This document shows, piece by piece, positions 998-50,843 of a stretch of DNA of 64,000 nucleotides. The translations under genes and the position numbers were made by a program. Source of the DNA: Shigella phage vB_SboS_Gloob; the sequence record OL615011; one strand, written 5' to 3'. The notes under the pieces were generated by a model. That model was given only the letters and a program-made list of their open reading frames with translations, had not been told where the DNA came from and did not search any database. How positions within the stretch are numbered: the stretch's first letter is position 1; each line of letters begins with the position of its first letter.

Positions 998-1636
998 TTA
1001 CGGCGTTGGGTTCACCACAGGAATATGGAATCTGATCCCGGCGATGATATCCTTCAGCTGAGGCTTCCATCCATCCACCAAACGGGGGAGAGCGATAGCA
1101 CCAGGCTGAACTAAAATGATGTCGCTGCCTGTGATATTGTGCTGAGGGAACTGGGCAAGGTACTGCTCCATGGTGACACCCTCATCAATCAGAACCGCAC
1201 CGACGTCAGACGATGCGTAGGTTGCACCCAGACCGTCAACGCCCCACGCCAAGATGCCCCAGTCAGGGATGTTGGCTTCAGATGTGATGGTGAATCCAAA
1301 CACGGTGTTCAGCGAGGTGAAGGAATAGACATCGTGAGTTATGTCATACACCAGATACCCCTTGGCCAGCATATCGGCAAAGATCGCGTCCGTATCTCCC
1401 GCCGCCAGAGTCGGTACAGTAAACAACAGCTCGCCCTCAGGAGGGGCAGGATACGTGCCGAGGGCATAGAGGCACCATGCATCAATGCACTTCTTAATGA
1501 ACGCCTCGGGTGCGACGTAATCGGCAAGGCGCACAGTCCCCGAGTACTCGGATACGATGATTCCTTCCTTCGCGCCCTGTAGAGCGATGAAGACCAAGAT
1601 ATGTTCATATCCGGTCTGAGATGGAGTGATGTTCAT
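998..1636 (-). CDS. hypothetical protein
   Basis: ORF track 998..1732; start moved to internal Met (MNITPSQ), which overlaps the stop of the upstream gene (ATGA coupling). Confidence 0.5.
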   Translation of the reverse strand: MNITPSQTGYEHILVFIALQGAKEGIIVSEYSGTVRLADYVAPEAFIKKCIDAWCLYALGTYPAPPEGELLFTVPTLAAGDTDAIFADMLAKGYLVYDITHDVYSFTSLNTVFGFTITSEANIPDWGILAWGVDGLGATYASSDVGAVLIDEGVTMEQYLAQFPQHNITGSDIILVQPGAIALPRLVDGWKPQLKDIIAGIRFHIPVVNPTP

Positions 1637-2250
1637 TATCTTGTCCTCTTCAGTTTCTCTATCGTGCGCTTGTTCATGGCGATCACCCGAGGATCTACCT
1701 CGGAGATGGTCCGGCCTTTGAAGGACACACATTTCTGAAGATATTTAGCTTTCTTCACGACGTCAGCGGCATAAGCGTTCGATGCGGGATTACGGGCGAA
1801 GCCAGCATTGTAAGAGGAGAGGGATTTGCGTACATTCTGCTTGTGATAGGTCAGCCAGAACTGCATCTCATCGAGGGCGGCTTGCGCGGCATATTCTTGG
1901 TCGGTCAGCAACTTTATGGCGACATTGGCATAGCACTTGCGATTCTTACAACCTTCGCGATCACCAACTGTCTTCACCTTGTTCTGAAAGGCTCCCATGT
2001 TGGCCGCCTTGAGACCGTAGCGCATTGACACTACATCTTCACCAGCACGGCTCTCTCGCCAAGATATGGCAGCCAGGGTGTAACCAAGATCTTGTGTCTT
2101 GCCTATGTGATAGGCAGTTGCCAGCGTATTAAGTTGTTGCTCAGAGAAATCATAAACACATTGACTTGTATTTTGGGAAGCGTGCACATTCCCGCTGGCA
2201 ATGGTAAAGGTCACGGACAAGGCCATGGCCTTCAACGTTGTCATCGTCAT
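1636..2250 (-). CDS. secreted protein with lytic-transglycosylase-like (SLT-like) ES...GL motif
   Basis: N-terminal signal-peptide-like segment (MALSVTFTIASGNVHA); ISWRESR...YGL motif; late-promoter-like motif upstream. Confidence 0.35.
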   Translation of the reverse strand: MTMTTLKAMALSVTFTIASGNVHASQNTSQCVYDFSEQQLNTLATAYHIGKTQDLGYTLAAISWRESRAGEDVVSMRYGLKAANMGAFQNKVKTVGDREGCKNRKCYANVAIKLLTDQEYAAQAALDEMQFWLTYHKQNVRKSLSSYNAGFARNPASNAYAADVVKKAKYLQKCVSFKGRTISEVDPRVIAMNKRTIEKLKRTR

Positions 2251-8011: not shown

Positions 8012-8779
8012 ATGGCACCCCGCGCATATCGTTTCAGTCTCACCGCCCCGCAGATTGAGCAATTGCTCCTTTCTATCAATGATGCTATCAAGTCAGAAGA
8101 TATCATCTATGATTATGCTGCAGGTGGGACTGTTGGGCAAGTCGCAGCAGCGTCTGCCGTCAAGAACATGTGGTTGAAGCTCAACGAGATGGTAACAGGC
8201 CAAGGCCTCAAAGATGCCATCAACGCTGCAGAAGACAGCAACGTGTTCACCGACTATTATAAGTCTTTACTGGATCGCGAAGGCTGGAAATTTATTGGGT
8301 CTCCGGCAGATGAACTTGAGCGAGGCGACATCGACACCGCGAACTTCACGGGTGGTGAGGTCATTCTACTTCAGAAGAACGCTTCAGGCAACCCCGAATT
8401 CCAATACTGGAAGCGTACCCCGGTTGCTGGGGGTGATCCTACCTTTGCATGGGCTTCGGTCTATGAAGGGAACTCCAATGACTCTTCCATTGAGATCCCT
8501 GTGGTTGGCACCAGCGTACTCAAGGACATCCCCAAGGCGCTCTTCCATATGATCGAGTTCAGAGTGCATGTCTACGATGAGACACTGGGTCATTGGCAGG
8601 ACACCGACGGAAAAGTAGGGTATCGTGGCGAGGATCTGTTCTACAGCGTCTACAACCATGTTCAGACCAAACCTCTCGCCACCATTGACTTCAGTCAAGA
8701 CACAGATAGCATGACAGTCTCTGTTACTTCCCTGGAGCCGAATGTCAAATGCCATCTGTCGTTTATCGCTGGTTACTAA
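8012..8779 (+). CDS. hypothetical protein, probable late gene (one of few plus-strand genes)
   Basis: ORF track 7853..8779; start moved to MAPRAY preceded by AGAGGA. Confidence 0.5.
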   Translation: MAPRAYRFSLTAPQIEQLLLSINDAIKSEDIIYDYAAGGTVGQVAAASAVKNMWLKLNEMVTGQGLKDAINAAEDSNVFTDYYKSLLDREGWKFIGSPADELERGDIDTANFTGGEVILLQKNASGNPEFQYWKRTPVAGGDPTFAWASVYEGNSNDSSIEIPVVGTSVLKDIPKALFHMIEFRVHVYDETLGHWQDTDGKVGYRGEDLFYSVYNHVQTKPLATIDFSQDTDSMTVSVTSLEPNVKCHLSFIAGY

Positions 8780-12976: not shown

Positions 12977-13294
12977 TTATTTTTGAAATCCGACAAAGTC
13001 CTGGGCAATCCCCCGACAATACATCAGGTCTTTCTTCGTTTGTGGGCTGTTTTCGGCCGCAGACATCATCATTGGTAGGTCCAGCGCATTCTCTATCTGA
13101 TCAACACTGAACAGATCAAGGCGCTTCAGCTCTCCCTCGAAGTCAGACAGGAGGATAGATGTATCTTTGTCGTCCGGATGGAATTGCTGATACGTCTCCA
13201 TCCAGGCGGCGCAGGTATTCAGTTTAGACGGTGGTGTGGCGTTTACACACCCGGCCATCAGTAACAGCAGGAGTAGGATTTTACCTTTCATCAC
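12977..13294 (-). CDS. putative lipoprotein
   Basis: Signal peptide with lipobox (LLLLLLMAGC); ATGA overlap with the upstream gene. Confidence 0.5.
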   Translation of the reverse strand: MMKGKILLLLLLMAGCVNATPPSKLNTCAAWMETYQQFHPDDKDTSILLSDFEGELKRLDLFSVDQIENALDLPMMMSAAENSPQTKKDLMYCRGIAQDFVGFQK

Positions 13295-13977
13295 TCGTTC
13301 TCCTTCATCATATTGTCGCAGTCAACACGAGTCTGCTGGAGTTCGCGCGACATGCGAGGATCATCAAGGTTCACGCTCAGATTCGTGGCCAGGTCTTTCA
13401 GGCCGTTCTGAACCCTGTCTTCAAAGTAATAATCGTTCTCCACCAACCATGCCCTGAGGCCAAGAGCGCGAGTGCGCCATTCCTTCTTCAGGGCGCGATC
13501 AGAGGTCTGCGTAGCGCTGTATTCGAATACTTTGATGCACTGATTGCCATCGTTGATGAGGTTCAGGTGACGGCGGCCTATCTGCACACCCTTCTGTAAT
13601 GCCGGAGAAGGGAGAGAACGGCACTGTCTGACTGTCATTCGGCCTTGGGTGCCCATACGCCCAGTCATGATAAGATCGCCAGCCTCCATGCCGCCTCGAT
13701 TAAATTCGTCGTCATTGAGGTAGCCCTTGAGGTTATAGGCTCCCTGTTTGTATCGGTTGAACTCAATCCCAGCATTGACCACAGCAGTGGAGACGTTGCC
13801 CGTGTTCCAGAGTTCAGCAAAGTTCTCTATGGAACCAGACTTGTCGATGGCGACTGCCTGGGAGAACCCAGCACAGTAGGAAAGATCAGACCACAGTTTG
13901 TCACCTGTGGAGTTCAGCTTGGCGGCGGCGGGTAATGCCAGACCAGCCAGCACAACCCCGAGGATTAAACGTTTCAT
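13291..13977 (-). CDS. putative secreted (periplasmic) protein
   Basis: ORF track 13291..14043; start moved to MKRLILGVVLAGLALPAAA (cleavable signal peptide) preceded by AAGGAGA. Confidence 0.5.
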   Translation of the reverse strand: MKRLILGVVLAGLALPAAAKLNSTGDKLWSDLSYCAGFSQAVAIDKSGSIENFAELWNTGNVSTAVVNAGIEFNRYKQGAYNLKGYLNDDEFNRGGMEAGDLIMTGRMGTQGRMTVRQCRSLPSPALQKGVQIGRRHLNLINDGNQCIKVFEYSATQTSDRALKKEWRTRALGLRAWLVENDYYFEDRVQNGLKDLATNLSVNLDDPRMSRELQQTRVDCDNMMKENE

Positions 13978-29553: not shown

Positions 29554-29931
29554 ATGAAACAGTTCGTAGGATTATATGCGGTCGGATGCAGTAAGCCAGA
29601 CGCCATCCTCACCGCAGGGCAATTTGTCACAGGCACCCCAGTTTATCTGGCGCAGCTGGCGTCAGACAAGAACTTACCATCGGAGCCGCGATTTGTCCCT
29701 CTGGGTTTGATGGCAGGCCTGAAAGTTGGTCTGTATGTCGGTGTGGTGACGTTTGAAAACGGCGTCGAAGCGAAGGTTCTGCCATTTAAATTGGGCAGCG
29801 AACAAATGCTGAAGGACACTATCAGTGAACACCTGAACGCACAATGTCTGGTTTCTCTGGACAAATTGTTCGGCACAGTATCTGATGAAGGCGAGGCCAC
29901 CCCCGCCTATGTGAATCAAGATCAGTCGTGA
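29554..29931 (+). CDS. hypothetical protein
   Basis: 125-aa plus-strand ORF starting MKQFVGLYAV. Confidence 0.5.
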   Translation: MKQFVGLYAVGCSKPDAILTAGQFVTGTPVYLAQLASDKNLPSEPRFVPLGLMAGLKVGLYVGVVTFENGVEAKVLPFKLGSEQMLKDTISEHLNAQCLVSLDKLFGTVSDEGEATPAYVNQDQS

Positions 29932-32699: not shown

Positions 32700-33200
32700 T
32701 CATGGATTAGAATCAATCACCTTCCCACCAGATAGTGGGACCAGCTGCTGGAACTTGAACGTCACTGTCGTCACCAGCTGAGGTACAGCCGCATCCACAT
32801 CCACCAGTACGTTGTCCAGAGCAGTCGGACGGGCTTCCTCCAGCACGAGAGTGAGGCCAATCGGTCGGTTGAGGTTATCCAGTAATTCAATGGTAATGTC
32901 CTTGGAGACAGCCAAATCCTTGCCGACGTTGCTGGTGATCCATTGGTGGATCTGTAACCACGATTTCCAGTCCTCGTCTATAACGAAAGTAAATACGACG
33001 GGATCATAGGTTAAACGTTCTGAAGGGATAGAAACCAGTACGTCGCCAGGAGACGGACCATCGATGCCTTCGGAGTACACTCCTGGTATACTGAAGTCGT
33101 GGATGTTACGGGTTAGGAGTACAAGGTCTCCGATAGTCAGACGCCACTTATCGGACGCCGCGAAATTAGGGTTTTCGTTCTTGAATTGTACGTCGGACAT
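32700..33200 (-). CDS. hypothetical protein
   Basis: 166-aa ORF. Confidence 0.45.
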   Translation of the reverse strand: MSDVQFKNENPNFAASDKWRLTIGDLVLLTRNIHDFSIPGVYSEGIDGPSPGDVLVSIPSERLTYDPVVFTFVIDEDWKSWLQIHQWITSNVGKDLAVSKDITIELLDNLNRPIGLTLVLEEARPTALDNVLVDVDAAVPQLVTTVTFKFQQLVPLSGGKVIDSNP

Positions 33201-33238
33201 AATAGCACCTTTTGCTGTGGAGATATTTTGTGACCCTG

Positions 33239-33883
33239 ATGCGCGGGATCAGTAGATTGTTGTTGTTGGCATGCGCGATGCTCTTGCTTACGAGCTGTCG
33301 CATCTTTGTCACGCCAATAATTTCTGTTTCCGAACTCTGGAACCCAGAAGTACGCACCGTACCTGTGACGTTGTCGGCCAGTGTTCCTACTTGTAACAAG
33401 GGTATGCTGGACATCATCGTGCAAGAGTTCCAGACCTTCCAGAAGCTCGTGCCTTTGGGTTGCTTCGAGGAGAACACGAGCACCCTCAAGCCATACTGGA
33501 AGACCACGATTCCCCTCCTGCGTCGTGGCGATGAAGGGAAGATTCCATACCTATCAGCAAGTATTTATTACTCTCAGAACAACAGCATCATCATCACTTT
33601 TAATCCATCATTCTACGCCAAGCTGAAGCAACACATGGTTGGGCGACTGAGTGAAACGTCGGATATAATCGTGACGTTCAAAATCATGAATGACTCAGAC
33701 AAGCCAGTACGAATCGCAACTCAGGGTGTGTTCGTCAACAACGACGCAGTTGGGAATGAGATGAATATCTTTGAAGTTAACCCAGGGGGAACCATCTGGA
33801 TTAGACTGAGTAATGTGGGTGTGAACTCCCTACTGTTGGATGGCATCGAACCAGTGGGAGTTCTTCCGGCGCGGGAGCGCTGA
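33239..33883 (+). CDS. putative outer-membrane lipoprotein (plus-strand)
   Basis: MRGISRLLLLACAMLLLTSC signal peptide with lipobox; ORF track 33212..33883 begins at an upstream TTG. Confidence 0.5.
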   Translation: MRGISRLLLLACAMLLLTSCRIFVTPIISVSELWNPEVRTVPVTLSASVPTCNKGMLDIIVQEFQTFQKLVPLGCFEENTSTLKPYWKTTIPLLRRGDEGKIPYLSASIYYSQNNSIIITFNPSFYAKLKQHMVGRLSETSDIIVTFKIMNDSDKPVRIATQGVFVNNDAVGNEMNIFEVNPGGTIWIRLSNVGVNSLLLDGIEPVGVLPARER

Positions 33884-33885
33884 GA

Positions 33886-34614
33886 TTACTTCAGGGCGCT
33901 CTTCAGATTATCAGAACCTATGTTGTTGATAACGCCACCAGCGCACAGGTCTTTAGCCCACTCAGACAGTACATTGGCGAACGAGAAGTTCAGACACTTG
34001 CTGACCATGTCTTGGATGTGGGCTAACTCTGAGGCAATACCATTGGCGATATCCTGACCGATTTGCGCCACCTGAGCAATAGCATCGTTGATATATCCGG
34101 TAACTTCGGCGGCCAGCGCCTGGATCTTTGCTAGGCCAGCGCTTACGCCCTGCGCAACTAACTCAGCCAGTTCGGCCATCTTGGCAGTAACAGTGCTGAG
34201 AGCACCCTCCATAGCCCCGATCCACTGGCGCCCAAGAGTCTGTATGACGCCGAAGGCATTGTTGATCAGATCACAGTTGGTCGGCTCGCGCTCGATTGAC
34301 TTCAGGCCAGATTTGTACGACACGGAAGTCCCGATGCGGGAATACGCTTCGTTCACAGTCTGATCACCATAGTTGTTCAGCGTGGTGAGGCTGGTGTCGG
34401 CAGAGGTGAACATCGTGTTCGTTTCATTGAGTTTGGCTGTGGTTAGACCGCCTGCCGTCAGAGCGCCCTGGATTTGCGTATTTCCGGTGTTTGCCAGTGC
34501 AGCTGTAGTCGCCTTGCCGCTGGTGATTAAACCCTGAGACGTGCTGCTGAGGGACGGGAGAGGATTGTTAAATGCGTTACCCTGCTCAAGGGCGTCATAG
34601 ATCTGTGCGTTCAT
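33886..34614 (-). CDS. hypothetical protein, probable late gene
   Basis: Late-promoter-like motif upstream; alternative ATG at 34629. Confidence 0.5.
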   Translation of the reverse strand: MNAQIYDALEQGNAFNNPLPSLSSTSQGLITSGKATTAALANTGNTQIQGALTAGGLTTAKLNETNTMFTSADTSLTTLNNYGDQTVNEAYSRIGTSVSYKSGLKSIEREPTNCDLINNAFGVIQTLGRQWIGAMEGALSTVTAKMAELAELVAQGVSAGLAKIQALAAEVTGYINDAIAQVAQIGQDIANGIASELAHIQDMVSKCLNFSFANVLSEWAKDLCAGGVINNIGSDNLKSALK

Positions 34615-34636
34615 AGAAAATACCCCCATGGATGAT

Positions 34637-34648
34637 GGGGGTATTTAG
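34637..34648 (-). promoter_or_regulatory. late-promoter-like motif CCTAAATACCCCC within a 12-bp inverted repeat
   Basis: Promoter motif is one arm of the palindrome AAATACCCCCAT / ATGGGGGTATTT that also contains the first ATG. Confidence 0.45.
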
Positions 34649-50630: not shown

Positions 50631-50843
50631 ATGCAAGTGGAAGACATCAAAGAAGTTCGCAGCGGTCGTCGCGTCCGAATCATCTGTGTGGACGCCAAGA
50701 TTGGAGGCGGTGATTACGACATCGTCGGTCTGGTGAAGGAAGTGGATGGCACAGACTTCATTGAGTGGTGGAACTCCAACGACAAGACCGAAGACGGCCT
50801 GCTGCGTGGTAGTGGTAACGGAAACCTGGATTTGAAAATCTAA
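50631..50843 (+). CDS. hypothetical small protein (plus-strand)
   Basis: 70-aa ORF preceded by GAGGAA, in the gap between the gp13-like and gp14-like genes. Confidence 0.4.
   Translation: MQVEDIKEVRSGRRVRIICVDAKIGGGDYDIVGLVKEVDGTDFIEWWNSNDKTEDGLLRGSGNGNLDLKI

What the first reader, a model, noticed from the sequence alone, without database searches (positions are those of the whole stretch)
33239..33883. Plus-strand lipoprotein gene embedded in a minus-strand gene train
One of only four plus-strand genes encodes a 215-aa protein with a typical lipoprotein signal peptide and lipobox (LLTSC). Opposite-strand lipoproteins in lytic phages are often receptor-masking or superinfection-exclusion factors, or other host-envelope modifiers.
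Basis: partly seen in the sequence, partly recalled or inferred. Interest (0 to 1): 0.45.

Follow-up and report, generated by a model that had tools for sequence, protein, structure and literature searches.

The report
Conserved Ackermannviridae outer-membrane lipoprotein gene
The plus-strand gene is real and encodes an exported, lipid-anchored protein that is not part of the virion; every phage of this family carries it, it is already catalogued as domain of unknown function DUF7424, and what it does in the infected cell's envelope is still unknown.

Summary
The window is an Agtrevirus genome, about 98.6% identical to Shigella phage Ag3. The ORF ending at 33883 is a genuine gene under purifying selection (dN/dS about 0.08-0.09). 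It has a classic lipoprotein signal peptide and lipobox (LLTS-C).

One correction: the conserved start is GTG 33230, not ATG 33239. It sits behind an invariant GGAGA and gives 217 aa with the lipid-anchor Cys at position 23.

The gene is a core gene of Ackermannviridae (293 phage records). It always lies divergent from the gp3 tail-completion gene. Several GenBank records already call it "putative conserved lipoprotein", and Pfam files it as DUF7424.

New here:
- The lipobox Cys and two further cysteines are kept across the whole family, which suggests a periplasmic disulfide.
- Residue +2 is R or K, which predicts outer-membrane sorting.
- The confident AlphaFold model has no known structural relative.
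- Distant homologues are stand-alone lipoproteins in bacteria, including one in a Haemophilus prophage tail module and one on the Morganella chromosome.
- The phage's real o-spanin lies elsewhere in the window.
- The LIMEstone1 homologue was not detected in virions, although both flanking gene products were.

Function is unproven. An envelope-level exclusion or ejection-blocking role is the best guess (about 0.35). Masking of a specific receptor is disfavoured. Interest is modest.

The parts
33230..33883 (+). Coding sequence of the DUF7424 lipoprotein, 217 aa from the conserved GTG start.
   Evidence: ORF list and sequence. GTG and GGAGA invariant in six genera. Pfam DUF7424 7e-60 and phrog_3832 3e-101. 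dN/dS 0.08-0.09.
33219..33223 (+). Ribosome-binding site GGAGA, 6 nt upstream of the GTG start.
   Evidence: Invariant TGGAGA block in the six-genus alignment of the 29-nt divergent spacer.
33230..33298 (+). Lipoprotein signal peptide MTLMRGISRLLLLACAMLLLTS plus the lipid-anchor Cys23 (codon 33296-33298). The lipobox is L-T-S-C and residue +2 is Arg, so there is no Asp inner-membrane retention signal.
   Evidence: PS51257-type rule satisfied in six divergent members, with +2 = R or K in all six. The Cys is invariant in 25 close and 28 distant family members.
33392..33394 (+). Codon of Cys55, the first of a conserved Cys pair in the mature domain.
   Evidence: Invariant in alignment A1 and at least 90% conserved across the superfamily alignment A2.
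33461..33463 (+). Codon of Cys78, the second of the conserved Cys pair. A Cys55-Cys78 disulfide is inferred, which would be consistent with a periplasmic location.
   Evidence: Invariant in A1 and at least 90% conserved in A2. The disulfide is inference and was not measured in the model.
33299..33880 (+). Mature domain of about 194 aa, mainly beta strands with four short helices. It carries the family motifs N-D-(S/T) (N154-D155, 33689-33694) and L-S-(N/D)-V near the C terminus.
   Evidence: AlphaFold2 model with mean pLDDT 83.1 and pTM 0.80. Motif conservation. No solved or non-family viral structure resembles it.
33873..33903 (.). GC-rich hairpin spanning the two convergent stop codons: the lipoprotein TGA at 33881-33883 and the DUF7217 TAA at 33886-33888. 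Ag3 annotates it as a stem-loop and Klebsiella phage Magnus as a terminator. It has no U-tract and is not unusually stable.
   Evidence: Fold gives -20.7 kcal/mol with z = -0.51 against shuffles. The terminator scan does not call it. Annotations.
32989..32996 (+). Candidate late-type promoter motif GTAAATAC, inside the gp3 coding region and 234 nt upstream of the GTG start. This is speculative.
   Evidence: The motif is invariant in six genera, including wobble positions. The window's late-gene motif is (c/a)CTAAATACC. The Vibrio phage K476 orthologue has an exact CTAAATACC 38 nt upstream of its ATG.
32700..33200 (-). Context: the gp3-like tail completion / tube terminator gene. It is transcribed divergently from the lipoprotein gene across a 29-nt spacer, and this pairing is conserved in every relative examined.
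   Evidence: phrog_45 tail tube family. Annotations in Ag3, Yersinia, Serratia, Vibrio, Aeromonas, Dickeya, Salmonella and Klebsiella phages.
33886..34629 (-). Context: convergent neighbour DUF7217, a virion protein in Limestonevirus. It has a late-type CTAAATACC motif 12 nt upstream of its start, at 34641-34648.
   Evidence: Pfam DUF7217 1.7e-98. Annotated 'unknown structural protein' in JA15. LIMEstone1 ORF129 found by mass spectrometry. Motif.

Best explanation
Shown or strongly supported (about 0.9). The gene 33230-33883 (+) encodes a Sec/Lgt/LspA-type lipoprotein of Pfam family DUF7424. After signal-peptide cleavage, Cys23 would be lipid-modified. Because residue +2 is Arg and not Asp, the Lol pathway should carry the protein to the inner leaflet of the outer membrane. 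The beta-rich globular domain of about 194 aa, probably stabilised by a Cys55-Cys78 disulfide, would then sit in the periplasm. It is a non-virion core protein of Ackermannviridae, made in the infected cell.

Inferred (about 0.35). From that position it changes the infected cell's envelope to the phage's benefit. The most likely way is envelope-level exclusion: blocking a conserved periplasmic step of tail penetration or DNA ejection by a second phage, or keeping released progeny from ejecting into envelope debris. It would do this by binding a conserved partner, either a conserved envelope component or the family's own conserved tail-tip or tape-measure apparatus. It would not do it by masking a host-specific surface receptor.
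For: Lipoprotein features:
- Conserved GTG start and Shine-Dalgarno sequence.
- PS51257-type signal in six members sharing as little as 23-29% identity, with +2 = R or K.
- Lipobox Cys invariant, and two further Cys at least 90% conserved, across 28 superfamily members.

Real, selected gene:
- DUF7424 at 202.6 bits.
- dN/dS of 0.08-0.09.
- 293 phage records, including essentially all of the roughly 281 enterobacterial Ackermannviridae that carry the neighbouring gp3.

Not a virion protein:
- LIMEstone1 mass spectrometry found ORF127 (gp3) and ORF129 (the 25-kDa DUF7217 protein) but not ORF128, which lies between them.
- JA15 annotates only the neighbour as structural.
- An exported lipoprotein cannot join cytoplasmic virion assembly (established knowledge).

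Not the spanin:
- The Rz-like o-spanin is at 12977-13291 (-).

Behaves like a self-contained accessory envelope gene:
- It has its own orientation and ribosome-binding site.
- Distant homologues are single, unlinked lipoprotein genes. One lies between the tape-measure and Dit-like baseplate genes of a Haemophilus haemolyticus prophage. One is next to a resolvase. One is in an umuDC plus restriction-modification island.
- Known phage lipoproteins other than spanins (T5 Llp, Cor, Streptococcus TP-J34 Ltp) are exclusion factors (background knowledge, plus PMC9409062 as read).
Against: - No experiment or annotation links any DUF7424 member to exclusion. There are no PADLOC matches.
- Exclusion genes are usually patchy and fast-evolving. 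This one is a strictly syntenic core gene evolving only slightly faster than its neighbours: 61% identity to Kuttervirus, against 64-88% for the neighbours.
- Other homologues sit in ordinary chromosomal contexts (Morganella next to fliE, one next to a TonB-dependent receptor gene, one next to gshA). This hints at a general envelope function rather than a phage-specific one.
- Expression may be late. A canonical late motif lies upstream of the Vibrio phage orthologue, and a conserved nTAAATAC lies upstream here. T5 Llp and T4 Imm/Sp are early (background knowledge).
Confidence: 0.35

Rival explanations
1. Lysis accessory or lysis-timing factor. A late-made periplasmic lipoprotein restrains or positions a lysis component until the holin fires. 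The component could be the phage's Sec-exported SLT-like muralytic enzyme (window 1636-2250, -) or the spanin complex.
For: - The phage encodes an SLT-like protein with a cleavable signal peptide behind a late-type motif. An exported muralytic enzyme would need to be held in check.
- There are hints of late transcription of the lipoprotein gene.
- The gene is universally conserved, like the lysis genes.
- The Morganella homologue lies two genes from an MliC lysozyme-inhibitor gene.
Against: - The gene is not linked to any lysis gene. The spanins are 20 kb away and the SLT gene 31 kb away.
- The profile comparison with MliC is null, at 0.3% probability.
- Bacterial homologues lie outside any lysis context.
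Confidence: 0.2
2. General envelope-maintenance or host-physiology lipoprotein. The phage copy would be a bacterial-type outer-membrane lipoprotein captured long ago, used to keep the envelope intact or productive during the latent period. Examples would be stabilising the outer membrane, damping an envelope stress response, or limiting vesiculation. It would have no direct effect on other phages.
For: - DUF7424 occurs as a chromosomal gene in Morganella morganii (a cluster of 204 sequences, with loci in two genomes of the genome collection) and in other bacteria, in non-mobile contexts.
- The family-wide motifs (three Cys, NDT, LSDV) are shared by phage and bacterial members, which implies the same biochemical activity.
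- Strong purifying selection and core-gene status.
Against: - No conserved operon partner points to a pathway.
- There is no NCBIfam or characterised-family match.
- Several bacterial copies are in mobile or accessory DNA, which fits accessory genes better than housekeeping genes.
Confidence: 0.2
3. Specific receptor masking from the periplasmic face, as T5 Llp and Cor do with FhuA. This is the narrow reading of the first reader's idea.
For: Same cellular address as Llp, an outer-membrane lipoprotein facing the periplasm. It is made by a virulent phage.
Against: - At 217 aa it is much larger than the roughly 60-80 aa of Llp and Cor.
- It has no Pfam or fold similarity to them.
- It is not adjacent to the receptor-binding genes, which lie more than 20 kb away.
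- It is conserved across phages whose tailspikes target different O-antigens and capsules in different host genera. A single protein receptor would have to be shared from Salmonella to Aeromonas.
Confidence: 0.1
4. A virion or assembly protein, suggested by its position between two structural genes. Alternatively, a non-functional ORF.
For: It is flanked by gp3 and the DUF7217 structural protein.
Against: - The export signal is conserved across the whole family.
- The protein is absent from the LIMEstone1 virion proteome, while both neighbours are present.
- Purifying selection rules out a spurious ORF.
Confidence: 0.03

Closest known systems
Pfam DUF7424 (PF24199) / PHROG 3832, for example Shigella phage Ag3 gp146, Salmonella phage Marshall gp69 'putative conserved lipoprotein', and Yersinia phage CAU_YEP3 'lipoprotein'
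   Same: It is a direct member: 97% aa identity to Ag3 gp146, 202.6 bits to the Pfam model, the same length, the same lipobox and the same genomic position.
   Different: Nothing of substance. The family has no known function, so membership explains nothing about mechanism.
T5 Llp and the Cor proteins of T1, phi80 and N15 (receptor-blocking lipoproteins)
   Same: Both are phage-encoded outer-membrane lipoproteins acting, or presumed to act, from the periplasmic side, and neither is part of the virion.
   Different: - About three times larger, with a globular beta-rich two-Cys domain.
- No sequence or fold similarity.
- Not next to the receptor-binding genes.
- A core gene across many host genera rather than tied to one receptor.
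- Possibly late rather than early.
Streptococcus phage TP-J34 Ltp, and T4 Sp/Imm (DNA-ejection-blocking superinfection exclusion proteins)
   Same: This is the proposed mode of action: an envelope-located protein that stops the incoming phage after adsorption. Ltp is also a lipoprotein. A DUF7424 gene lies immediately downstream of the tape-measure gene in a Haemophilus prophage.
   Different: There is no detectable homology or shared fold. The host envelope is Gram-negative. No experimental link exists.
o-spanins (Rz1 family) and unimolecular spanins (T1 gp11)
   Same: All have an N-terminal lipoprotein signal, are phage-encoded and are outer-membrane anchored.
   Different: - Not small or proline-rich.
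- No partner i-spanin gene overlapping or adjacent.
- No C-terminal transmembrane helix.
- The phage's own Rz-like o-spanin is at 12977-13291.

Membership tests
Bacterial lipoprotein (signal peptidase II substrate, PROSITE PS51257 type) | Positively charged n-region, an uncharged hydrophobic h-region, and a lipobox [LVI][ASTVI][GAS]-C with the Cys at residues 15-35 | tested here: met
   MTLMRGISRLLLLACAMLLLTS-C23. A rule-based test written from memory of the PROSITE pattern passed for the window protein and five divergent relatives. The Cys is invariant in 53 aligned sequences. SignalP and LipoP were not available.
Bacterial lipoprotein (signal peptidase II substrate, PROSITE PS51257 type) | Actual diacylglyceryl modification and globomycin-sensitive cleavage; Lol-dependent outer-membrane sorting | not testable with these tools
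   The only sequence-level predictor available is residue +2. It is R or K, not D, in all phage members examined.
Pfam DUF7424 (PF24199) | Score above the curated gathering threshold over the full-length domain | tested here: met
   202.6 bits against a cut-off of 27, covering residues 23-213 of 214 and profile positions 2-196 of 196. Ten distant bacterial relatives also pass.
o-spanin (Rz1-like) | A small lipoprotein (about 40-130 aa), usually proline-rich, with its gene embedded in, overlapping or adjacent to an i-spanin gene | tested here: not met
   The protein is a 217-aa globular beta-rich domain. Its neighbours are gp3 and DUF7217, not an i-spanin. A separate Rz-like spanin (phrog_3843, 2e-54) lies at 12977-13291.
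Unimolecular spanin (T1 gp11 type) | An N-terminal lipobox plus a C-terminal transmembrane helix | tested here: not met
   The C terminus reads ...SNVGVNSLLLDGIEPVGVLPARER and has no hydrophobic stretch of TM length.
T5 Llp / Cor receptor-blocking lipoproteins | Small mature protein (about 60-80 aa), sequence family membership, and a gene adjacent to the receptor-binding protein gene | tested here: not met
   The only Pfam match at E up to 1 is DUF7424. Neither fold search lists these proteins. The tailspike genes lie at the far end of the window, more than 20 kb away.
T5 Llp / Cor receptor-blocking lipoproteins | Inactivation of the phage's own outer-membrane receptor when expressed | not testable with these tools
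   This needs expression and adsorption assays.
Periplasmic or membrane-bound lysozyme inhibitors (MliC/PliC, PliG) | Sequence or fold membership | tested here: not met
Known anti-phage defence proteins (PADLOC-DB) | A match to any defence-system HMM | tested here: not met
   No hit at E up to 0.1 for the window protein or four bacterial homologues.

The most novel reading that the evidence does not exclude
DUF7424 could be a previously unrecognised class of outer-membrane lipoprotein with a new fold. It is shared by a whole family of virulent phages, by prophages and by bacterial accessory DNA. On this reading it acts in the periplasm on a conserved step of phage-envelope traffic. It would either block tail-tip or tape-measure passage of incoming phages (a new superinfection-exclusion family), or hold the phage's own Sec-exported SLT-like lysin inactive until lysis.

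A side possibility is that the lipoprotein gene and gp3 are driven by late promoters embedded in each other's coding sequence, which would give overlapping antisense leaders.
Probability: 0.3. Interest if true: 0.6.

Novelty: already known. Interest (0 to 1): 0.3.

Why it matters
Ackermannviridae (ViI, CBA120, LIMEstone, Ag3 and relatives) are widely used in phage therapy and biocontrol cocktails. More than half of their genes have no assigned function.

This gene is a universally conserved exported lipoprotein of this family, distinct from the o-spanin, and it has no structural relative. If it excludes other phages or inactivates adsorption sites, it would affect how cocktail members interfere with each other. 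It would also add a new exclusion family that prophages and bacteria carry too. If it controls lysis, it would help explain how these phages, whose lysis system was long unclear, time the action of an exported muralytic enzyme.

As it stands, the finding is a correct re-identification of an already catalogued protein of unknown function.

Tried and rejected
- **Virion mass spectrometry in Sajous1.** I checked whether the hits gp214-217 (PMC10892097) were this locus. They are a different locus.
- **Promoter and terminator search.** The sigma-70 promoter and intrinsic-terminator scan around the gene found no promoter for the plus strand and did not call the 3' hairpin. The hairpin is not unusually stable, z = -0.51. 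The T4 late promoter TATAAATA occurs once in the window and is not relevant here. CATAAT at 33198 overlaps the gp3 start codon and is not conserved outside the Aglimvirinae, so I rejected it as the promoter.
- **Sequence searches.** A profile search of PDB sequences gave nothing significant. NCBIfam and PADLOC gave nothing. hhalign against MliC was null.
- **The search for related loci.** Single bacterial members found nothing in the viral contigs. A bacterial member found nothing in plasmids.
- **Literature.** Searches for DUF7424, for Ackermannviridae with lipoprotein, for superinfection exclusion with Kuttervirus, and for transcriptomes found no functional or expression data.
- **Artefact hits.** Two long hits in the exhaustive search (P0075, P0133) are repeat or low-complexity artefacts.
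- **Other plus-strand genes.** The Ag3 gp111 and gp141 homologues show no export signal. The 'lipobox' my scan flagged in the gp141 homologue has its Cys at residue 12, which is too short for a signal peptide.

Full report
**Identity of the window and the gene**

A 2.1-kb stretch around the finding is 98.6-98.7% identical to Salmonella phage SKML-39 and Shigella phage Ag3 (Ackermannviridae, Agtrevirus). It is 81-89% identical to other Aglimvirinae. In Ag3 the gene is gp146, annotated 'hypothetical protein', and lies between gp145 (gp3 tail completion protein, minus strand) and gp147 (minus strand).

It matches Pfam DUF7424 over its full length (7e-60, 202.6 bits against a cut-off of 27) and PHROG 3832, both of unknown function.

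**Start codon**

I aligned the divergent spacer and gene start from six genera: Agtrevirus, the Yersinia phage CAU_YEP3, Limestonevirus, Kuttervirus, Taipeivirus and Miltonvirus. The alignment shows an invariant TGGAGA followed 6-8 nt later by an invariant GTG, which in the window is at 33230. The ATG at 33239 is missing in Kuttervirus and Miltonvirus. The conserved product is therefore 217 aa with the lipobox Cys at position 23. The spacer to the gp3 start codon is only 29 nt and is filled by the two ribosome-binding sites.

**Is it a lipoprotein?**

SignalP and LipoP were not available, so I used a rule-based test written from memory of PROSITE PS51257. The window protein passed, as did the Kuttervirus, Taipeivirus, Miltonvirus, Vibrio K476 and Aeromonas TSW001 orthologues, which share as little as 23-29% identity with it. 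Residue +2 is R or K in every case. By the enterobacterial Asp+2 retention rule (established knowledge), this predicts Lol-dependent sorting to the outer membrane.

In an alignment of 25 close relatives, Cys23, Cys55 and Cys78 are invariant. In an alignment with 27 distant relatives, the lipobox Cys is the only invariant column, and the other two Cys are at least 90% conserved. A conserved Cys pair in an exported domain suggests a periplasmic disulfide. This is inference; I could not measure it in the model.

**Is it a real, selected gene?**

- dN/dS against the Yersinia phage and Limestonevirus orthologues is 0.078 and 0.093. Its neighbours range from 0.02 to 0.13.
- tblastn finds the gene in 293 phage records, all Ackermannviridae or Ackermannviridae-like Vibrio and Aeromonas phages.
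- The neighbouring gp3 is found at 60% identity or more in about 281 records. Essentially every enterobacterial member therefore has both genes.
- Identity to Kuttervirus is 61%. That is lower than exonuclease (88%), UvsY (83%) and gp3 (79%), and similar to the structural DUF7217 protein (64%).
- In all nine annotated loci the gene is transcribed divergently from the gp3-like gene, even where the other neighbour differs. In a tenth relative, Erwinia phage phiEa2809, tblastn places the unannotated homologue in the same gap.
- The Ag3 annotation has exactly four plus-strand CDS in the 64 kb that match the window.

**What it is not**

- It is not the o-spanin. A second lipobox ORF at 12977-13291 (-) is the Rz-like spanin (phrog_3843, 2e-54), next to a candidate i-spanin.
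- It has no C-terminal transmembrane helix, so it is not a unimolecular spanin.
- It is not a virion component. In the LIMEstone1 virion proteome, ORF127 (gp3) and ORF129 (a 25-kDa unknown structural protein, the DUF7217 homologue) were detected. ORF128 between them was not (PMC3296691). The assignment of ORF128 rests on the identical gene order in Limestonevirus JA15, where only the neighbour is annotated as structural.
- It is not the Sajous1 gp214-217 'ferrojan horse' operon, which is a different locus.

**Structure**

AlphaFold2 with a 25-sequence alignment gave a confident model, with mean pLDDT 83.1 and pTM 0.80. After the signal helix the mature domain is mainly beta strands with four short helices.

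- Foldseek against the PDB gives nothing at E up to 1e-3.
- BFVD returns only DUF7424 members.
- A profile search of PDB sequences, NCBIfam and PADLOC all give nothing.

The protein is therefore not structurally related to any solved protein. I did not check which exclusion proteins are in these libraries. If T5 Llp, Ltp or Spackle are there, none of them appeared among the matches.

**Wider family**

An exhaustive profile search of 1.84 billion representatives found 87 proteins at E up to 1e-3. Most are 190-240 aa and match over their full length. All 30 sequences I retrieved begin with a lipoprotein signal, for example LLAGCK, LTGCD and LSACD, and almost all keep the Cys pair. The 27 of them placed in alignment A2 also carry an N-D-T motif and an L-S-D/N-V motif. 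Ten of the retrieved sequences pass the DUF7424 threshold.

Their genomic contexts are as follows:

| Source | Context |
|---|---|
| Haemophilus haemolyticus | Inside a myovirus-type prophage, on the same strand, between the tape-measure gene and a Dit-like baseplate gene |
| Morganella morganii | Chromosomal, next to fliE |
| Metagenomic contig | Next to a resolvase |
| Bacterial genome | Beside umuDC and a restriction-modification pair |
| Metagenomic contig | Next to gshA |
| Bacterial genome | Next to a TonB-dependent receptor gene |
| Aeromonas Ackermannviridae-like phage | The usual position, divergent from the gp3-like gene |

The Haemophilus protein hits the Ackermannviridae proteins directly, at about 24% identity and E of 1e-9 to 1e-10. 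The family thus consists of stand-alone lipoproteins with no conserved operon partner, often carried in mobile or accessory DNA.

**Expression**

No sigma-70-like promoter is found upstream. The window's late genes carry a motif (c/a)CTAAATACC. There are seven exact CTAAATAC copies, all on the minus strand, and six of them lie 9-80 nt upstream of gene starts. One of these is 12 nt upstream of the DUF7217 start.

The Vibrio K476 orthologue has an exact CTAAATACC 38 nt upstream of its ATG. In the enterobacterial phages the only related plus-strand element is GTAAATAC at 32989-32996. It lies inside gp3, 234 nt upstream of the start, and is invariant in six genera including wobble positions.

A mirror-image ATAAATAC on the minus strand lies inside the lipoprotein gene, at 33561-33568. 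Its TAAATAC core is kept in five of six genera, although only 9% of third codon positions are invariant overall.

I read this as a hint, not proof, of late expression. It may also point to promoters embedded in each other's coding region. I found no transcriptome data for any family member.

**Mechanism**

What is shown is an exported, lipid-anchored, probably outer-membrane, disulfide-containing, non-virion protein that all family members make. What it does is inference.

I rank an envelope-level exclusion or ejection-blocking role first, at about 0.35. This includes protecting progeny from ejecting into envelope debris. My reasons:
- Outside the spanins, characterised phage lipoproteins are exclusion factors.
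- The gene behaves as a self-contained unit.
- A homologue sits as an inserted gene right after a prophage tape-measure gene.

The conservation pattern argues that the target is itself conserved, either a common envelope component or the family's own tail tip. It argues against the variable polysaccharide receptors and against a host-specific porin. For that reason I give classic receptor masking only about 0.1.

The other rivals are:
- A lysis accessory, about 0.2. It is prompted by possible late expression and by a Sec-exported SLT-like enzyme at 1636-2250. It is not supported by linkage or by comparison with MliC.
- A general envelope-physiology function shared with the bacterial homologues, about 0.2.

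**Novelty and verdict**

The gene, its family and its lipoprotein nature are already in public databases. Annotations include 'putative conserved lipoprotein' in Marshall, 'conserved hypothetical lipoprotein' in Maynard, 'putative lipoprotein' in moki, maane and others, and 'lipoprotein' in CAU_YEP3.

What this analysis adds:
- the conserved GTG start;
- the family-wide Cys triad and the +2 rule;
- the absence of any structural relative;
- the bacterial and prophage homologues;
- separation from the true spanin;
- the negative virion evidence.

Its functional suggestion remains a reasonable but untested hypothesis, and its narrow form (receptor masking) is disfavoured. Interest is modest, at 0.3.

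Noticed in passing
window 1636-2250 (-), with motif at 2330-2337: A 204-aa protein with a cleavable Sec-type signal peptide (...GNVHA|SQ) and an SLT-like lytic transglycosylase domain. Pfam SLT scores 20.5 bits, just under its cut-off of 21.3, and phrog_600 scores 9e-59. A late-type CACTAAATACC motif lies 80 nt upstream. This is probably an exported endolysin, which is relevant to how these phages time lysis.
   Followed up: partly
window, minus strand: 2330, 31455, 34641, 40793, 41149, 50594, 61953: A late-promoter-like consensus (c/a)CTAAATACC(cc). All seven exact CTAAATAC copies are on the coding (minus) strand, and six lie 9-80 nt upstream of gene starts, including the UvsW helicase, DUF7217, the prohead core protein and a tailspike gene. 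The T4 motif TATAAATA is essentially absent, with one copy in the window.
   Followed up: partly
window 32989-32996 (+) and 33561-33568 (-): Two nTAAATAC motifs are embedded in the coding regions of the divergent gene pair. One is in gp3, pointing toward the lipoprotein gene. The other is in the lipoprotein gene, pointing toward gp3. Both are conserved at wobble positions across genera, although only 9% of third codon positions are invariant. They may be face-to-face late promoters that would give overlapping antisense 5' leaders of about 580 nt. This is untested.
   Followed up: partly
window 12977-13291 (-) and 13291-13977 (-): The phage's actual o-spanin is a 104-aa lipoprotein, MKGKILLLLLLMAGC..., matching phrog_3843 'Rz-like spanin'. 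It abuts a 228-aa protein of unknown function (phrog_4260), which is the candidate i-spanin.
   Followed up: partly
window 8012-8779 (+), 29554-29931 (+), about 50631-50843 (+): These are the other three plus-strand genes, homologues of Ag3 gp111, gp141 and gp170. All are hypothetical. The first two show no export signal. Like the lipoprotein gene, they are single opposite-strand genes inside the minus-strand train.
   Followed up: partly
L011 8001-8651 (Haemophilus haemolyticus JACBKA010000023.1): A DUF7424 lipoprotein gene is inserted on the same strand between the tape-measure gene and a Dit-like baseplate gene of an E217/Pam3-type myovirus prophage. This placement looks like a moron, that is, an extra gene inserted into a phage operon.
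   Followed up: partly
L012-L014, L023-L024 (Morganella morganii): A chromosomal DUF7424 lipoprotein gene lies directly downstream of fliE in the flagellar region and two genes from an MliC lysozyme-inhibitor gene. Its 90%-identity cluster holds 204 sequences, and loci from two M. morganii genomes were retrieved.
   Followed up: partly
P0136, P0096, P0132: Some bacterial DUF7424 lipoproteins carry C-terminal extensions. One has ankyrin repeats. This suggests that the DUF7424 domain can serve as a membrane-anchored module fused to protein-binding domains.
   Followed up: no
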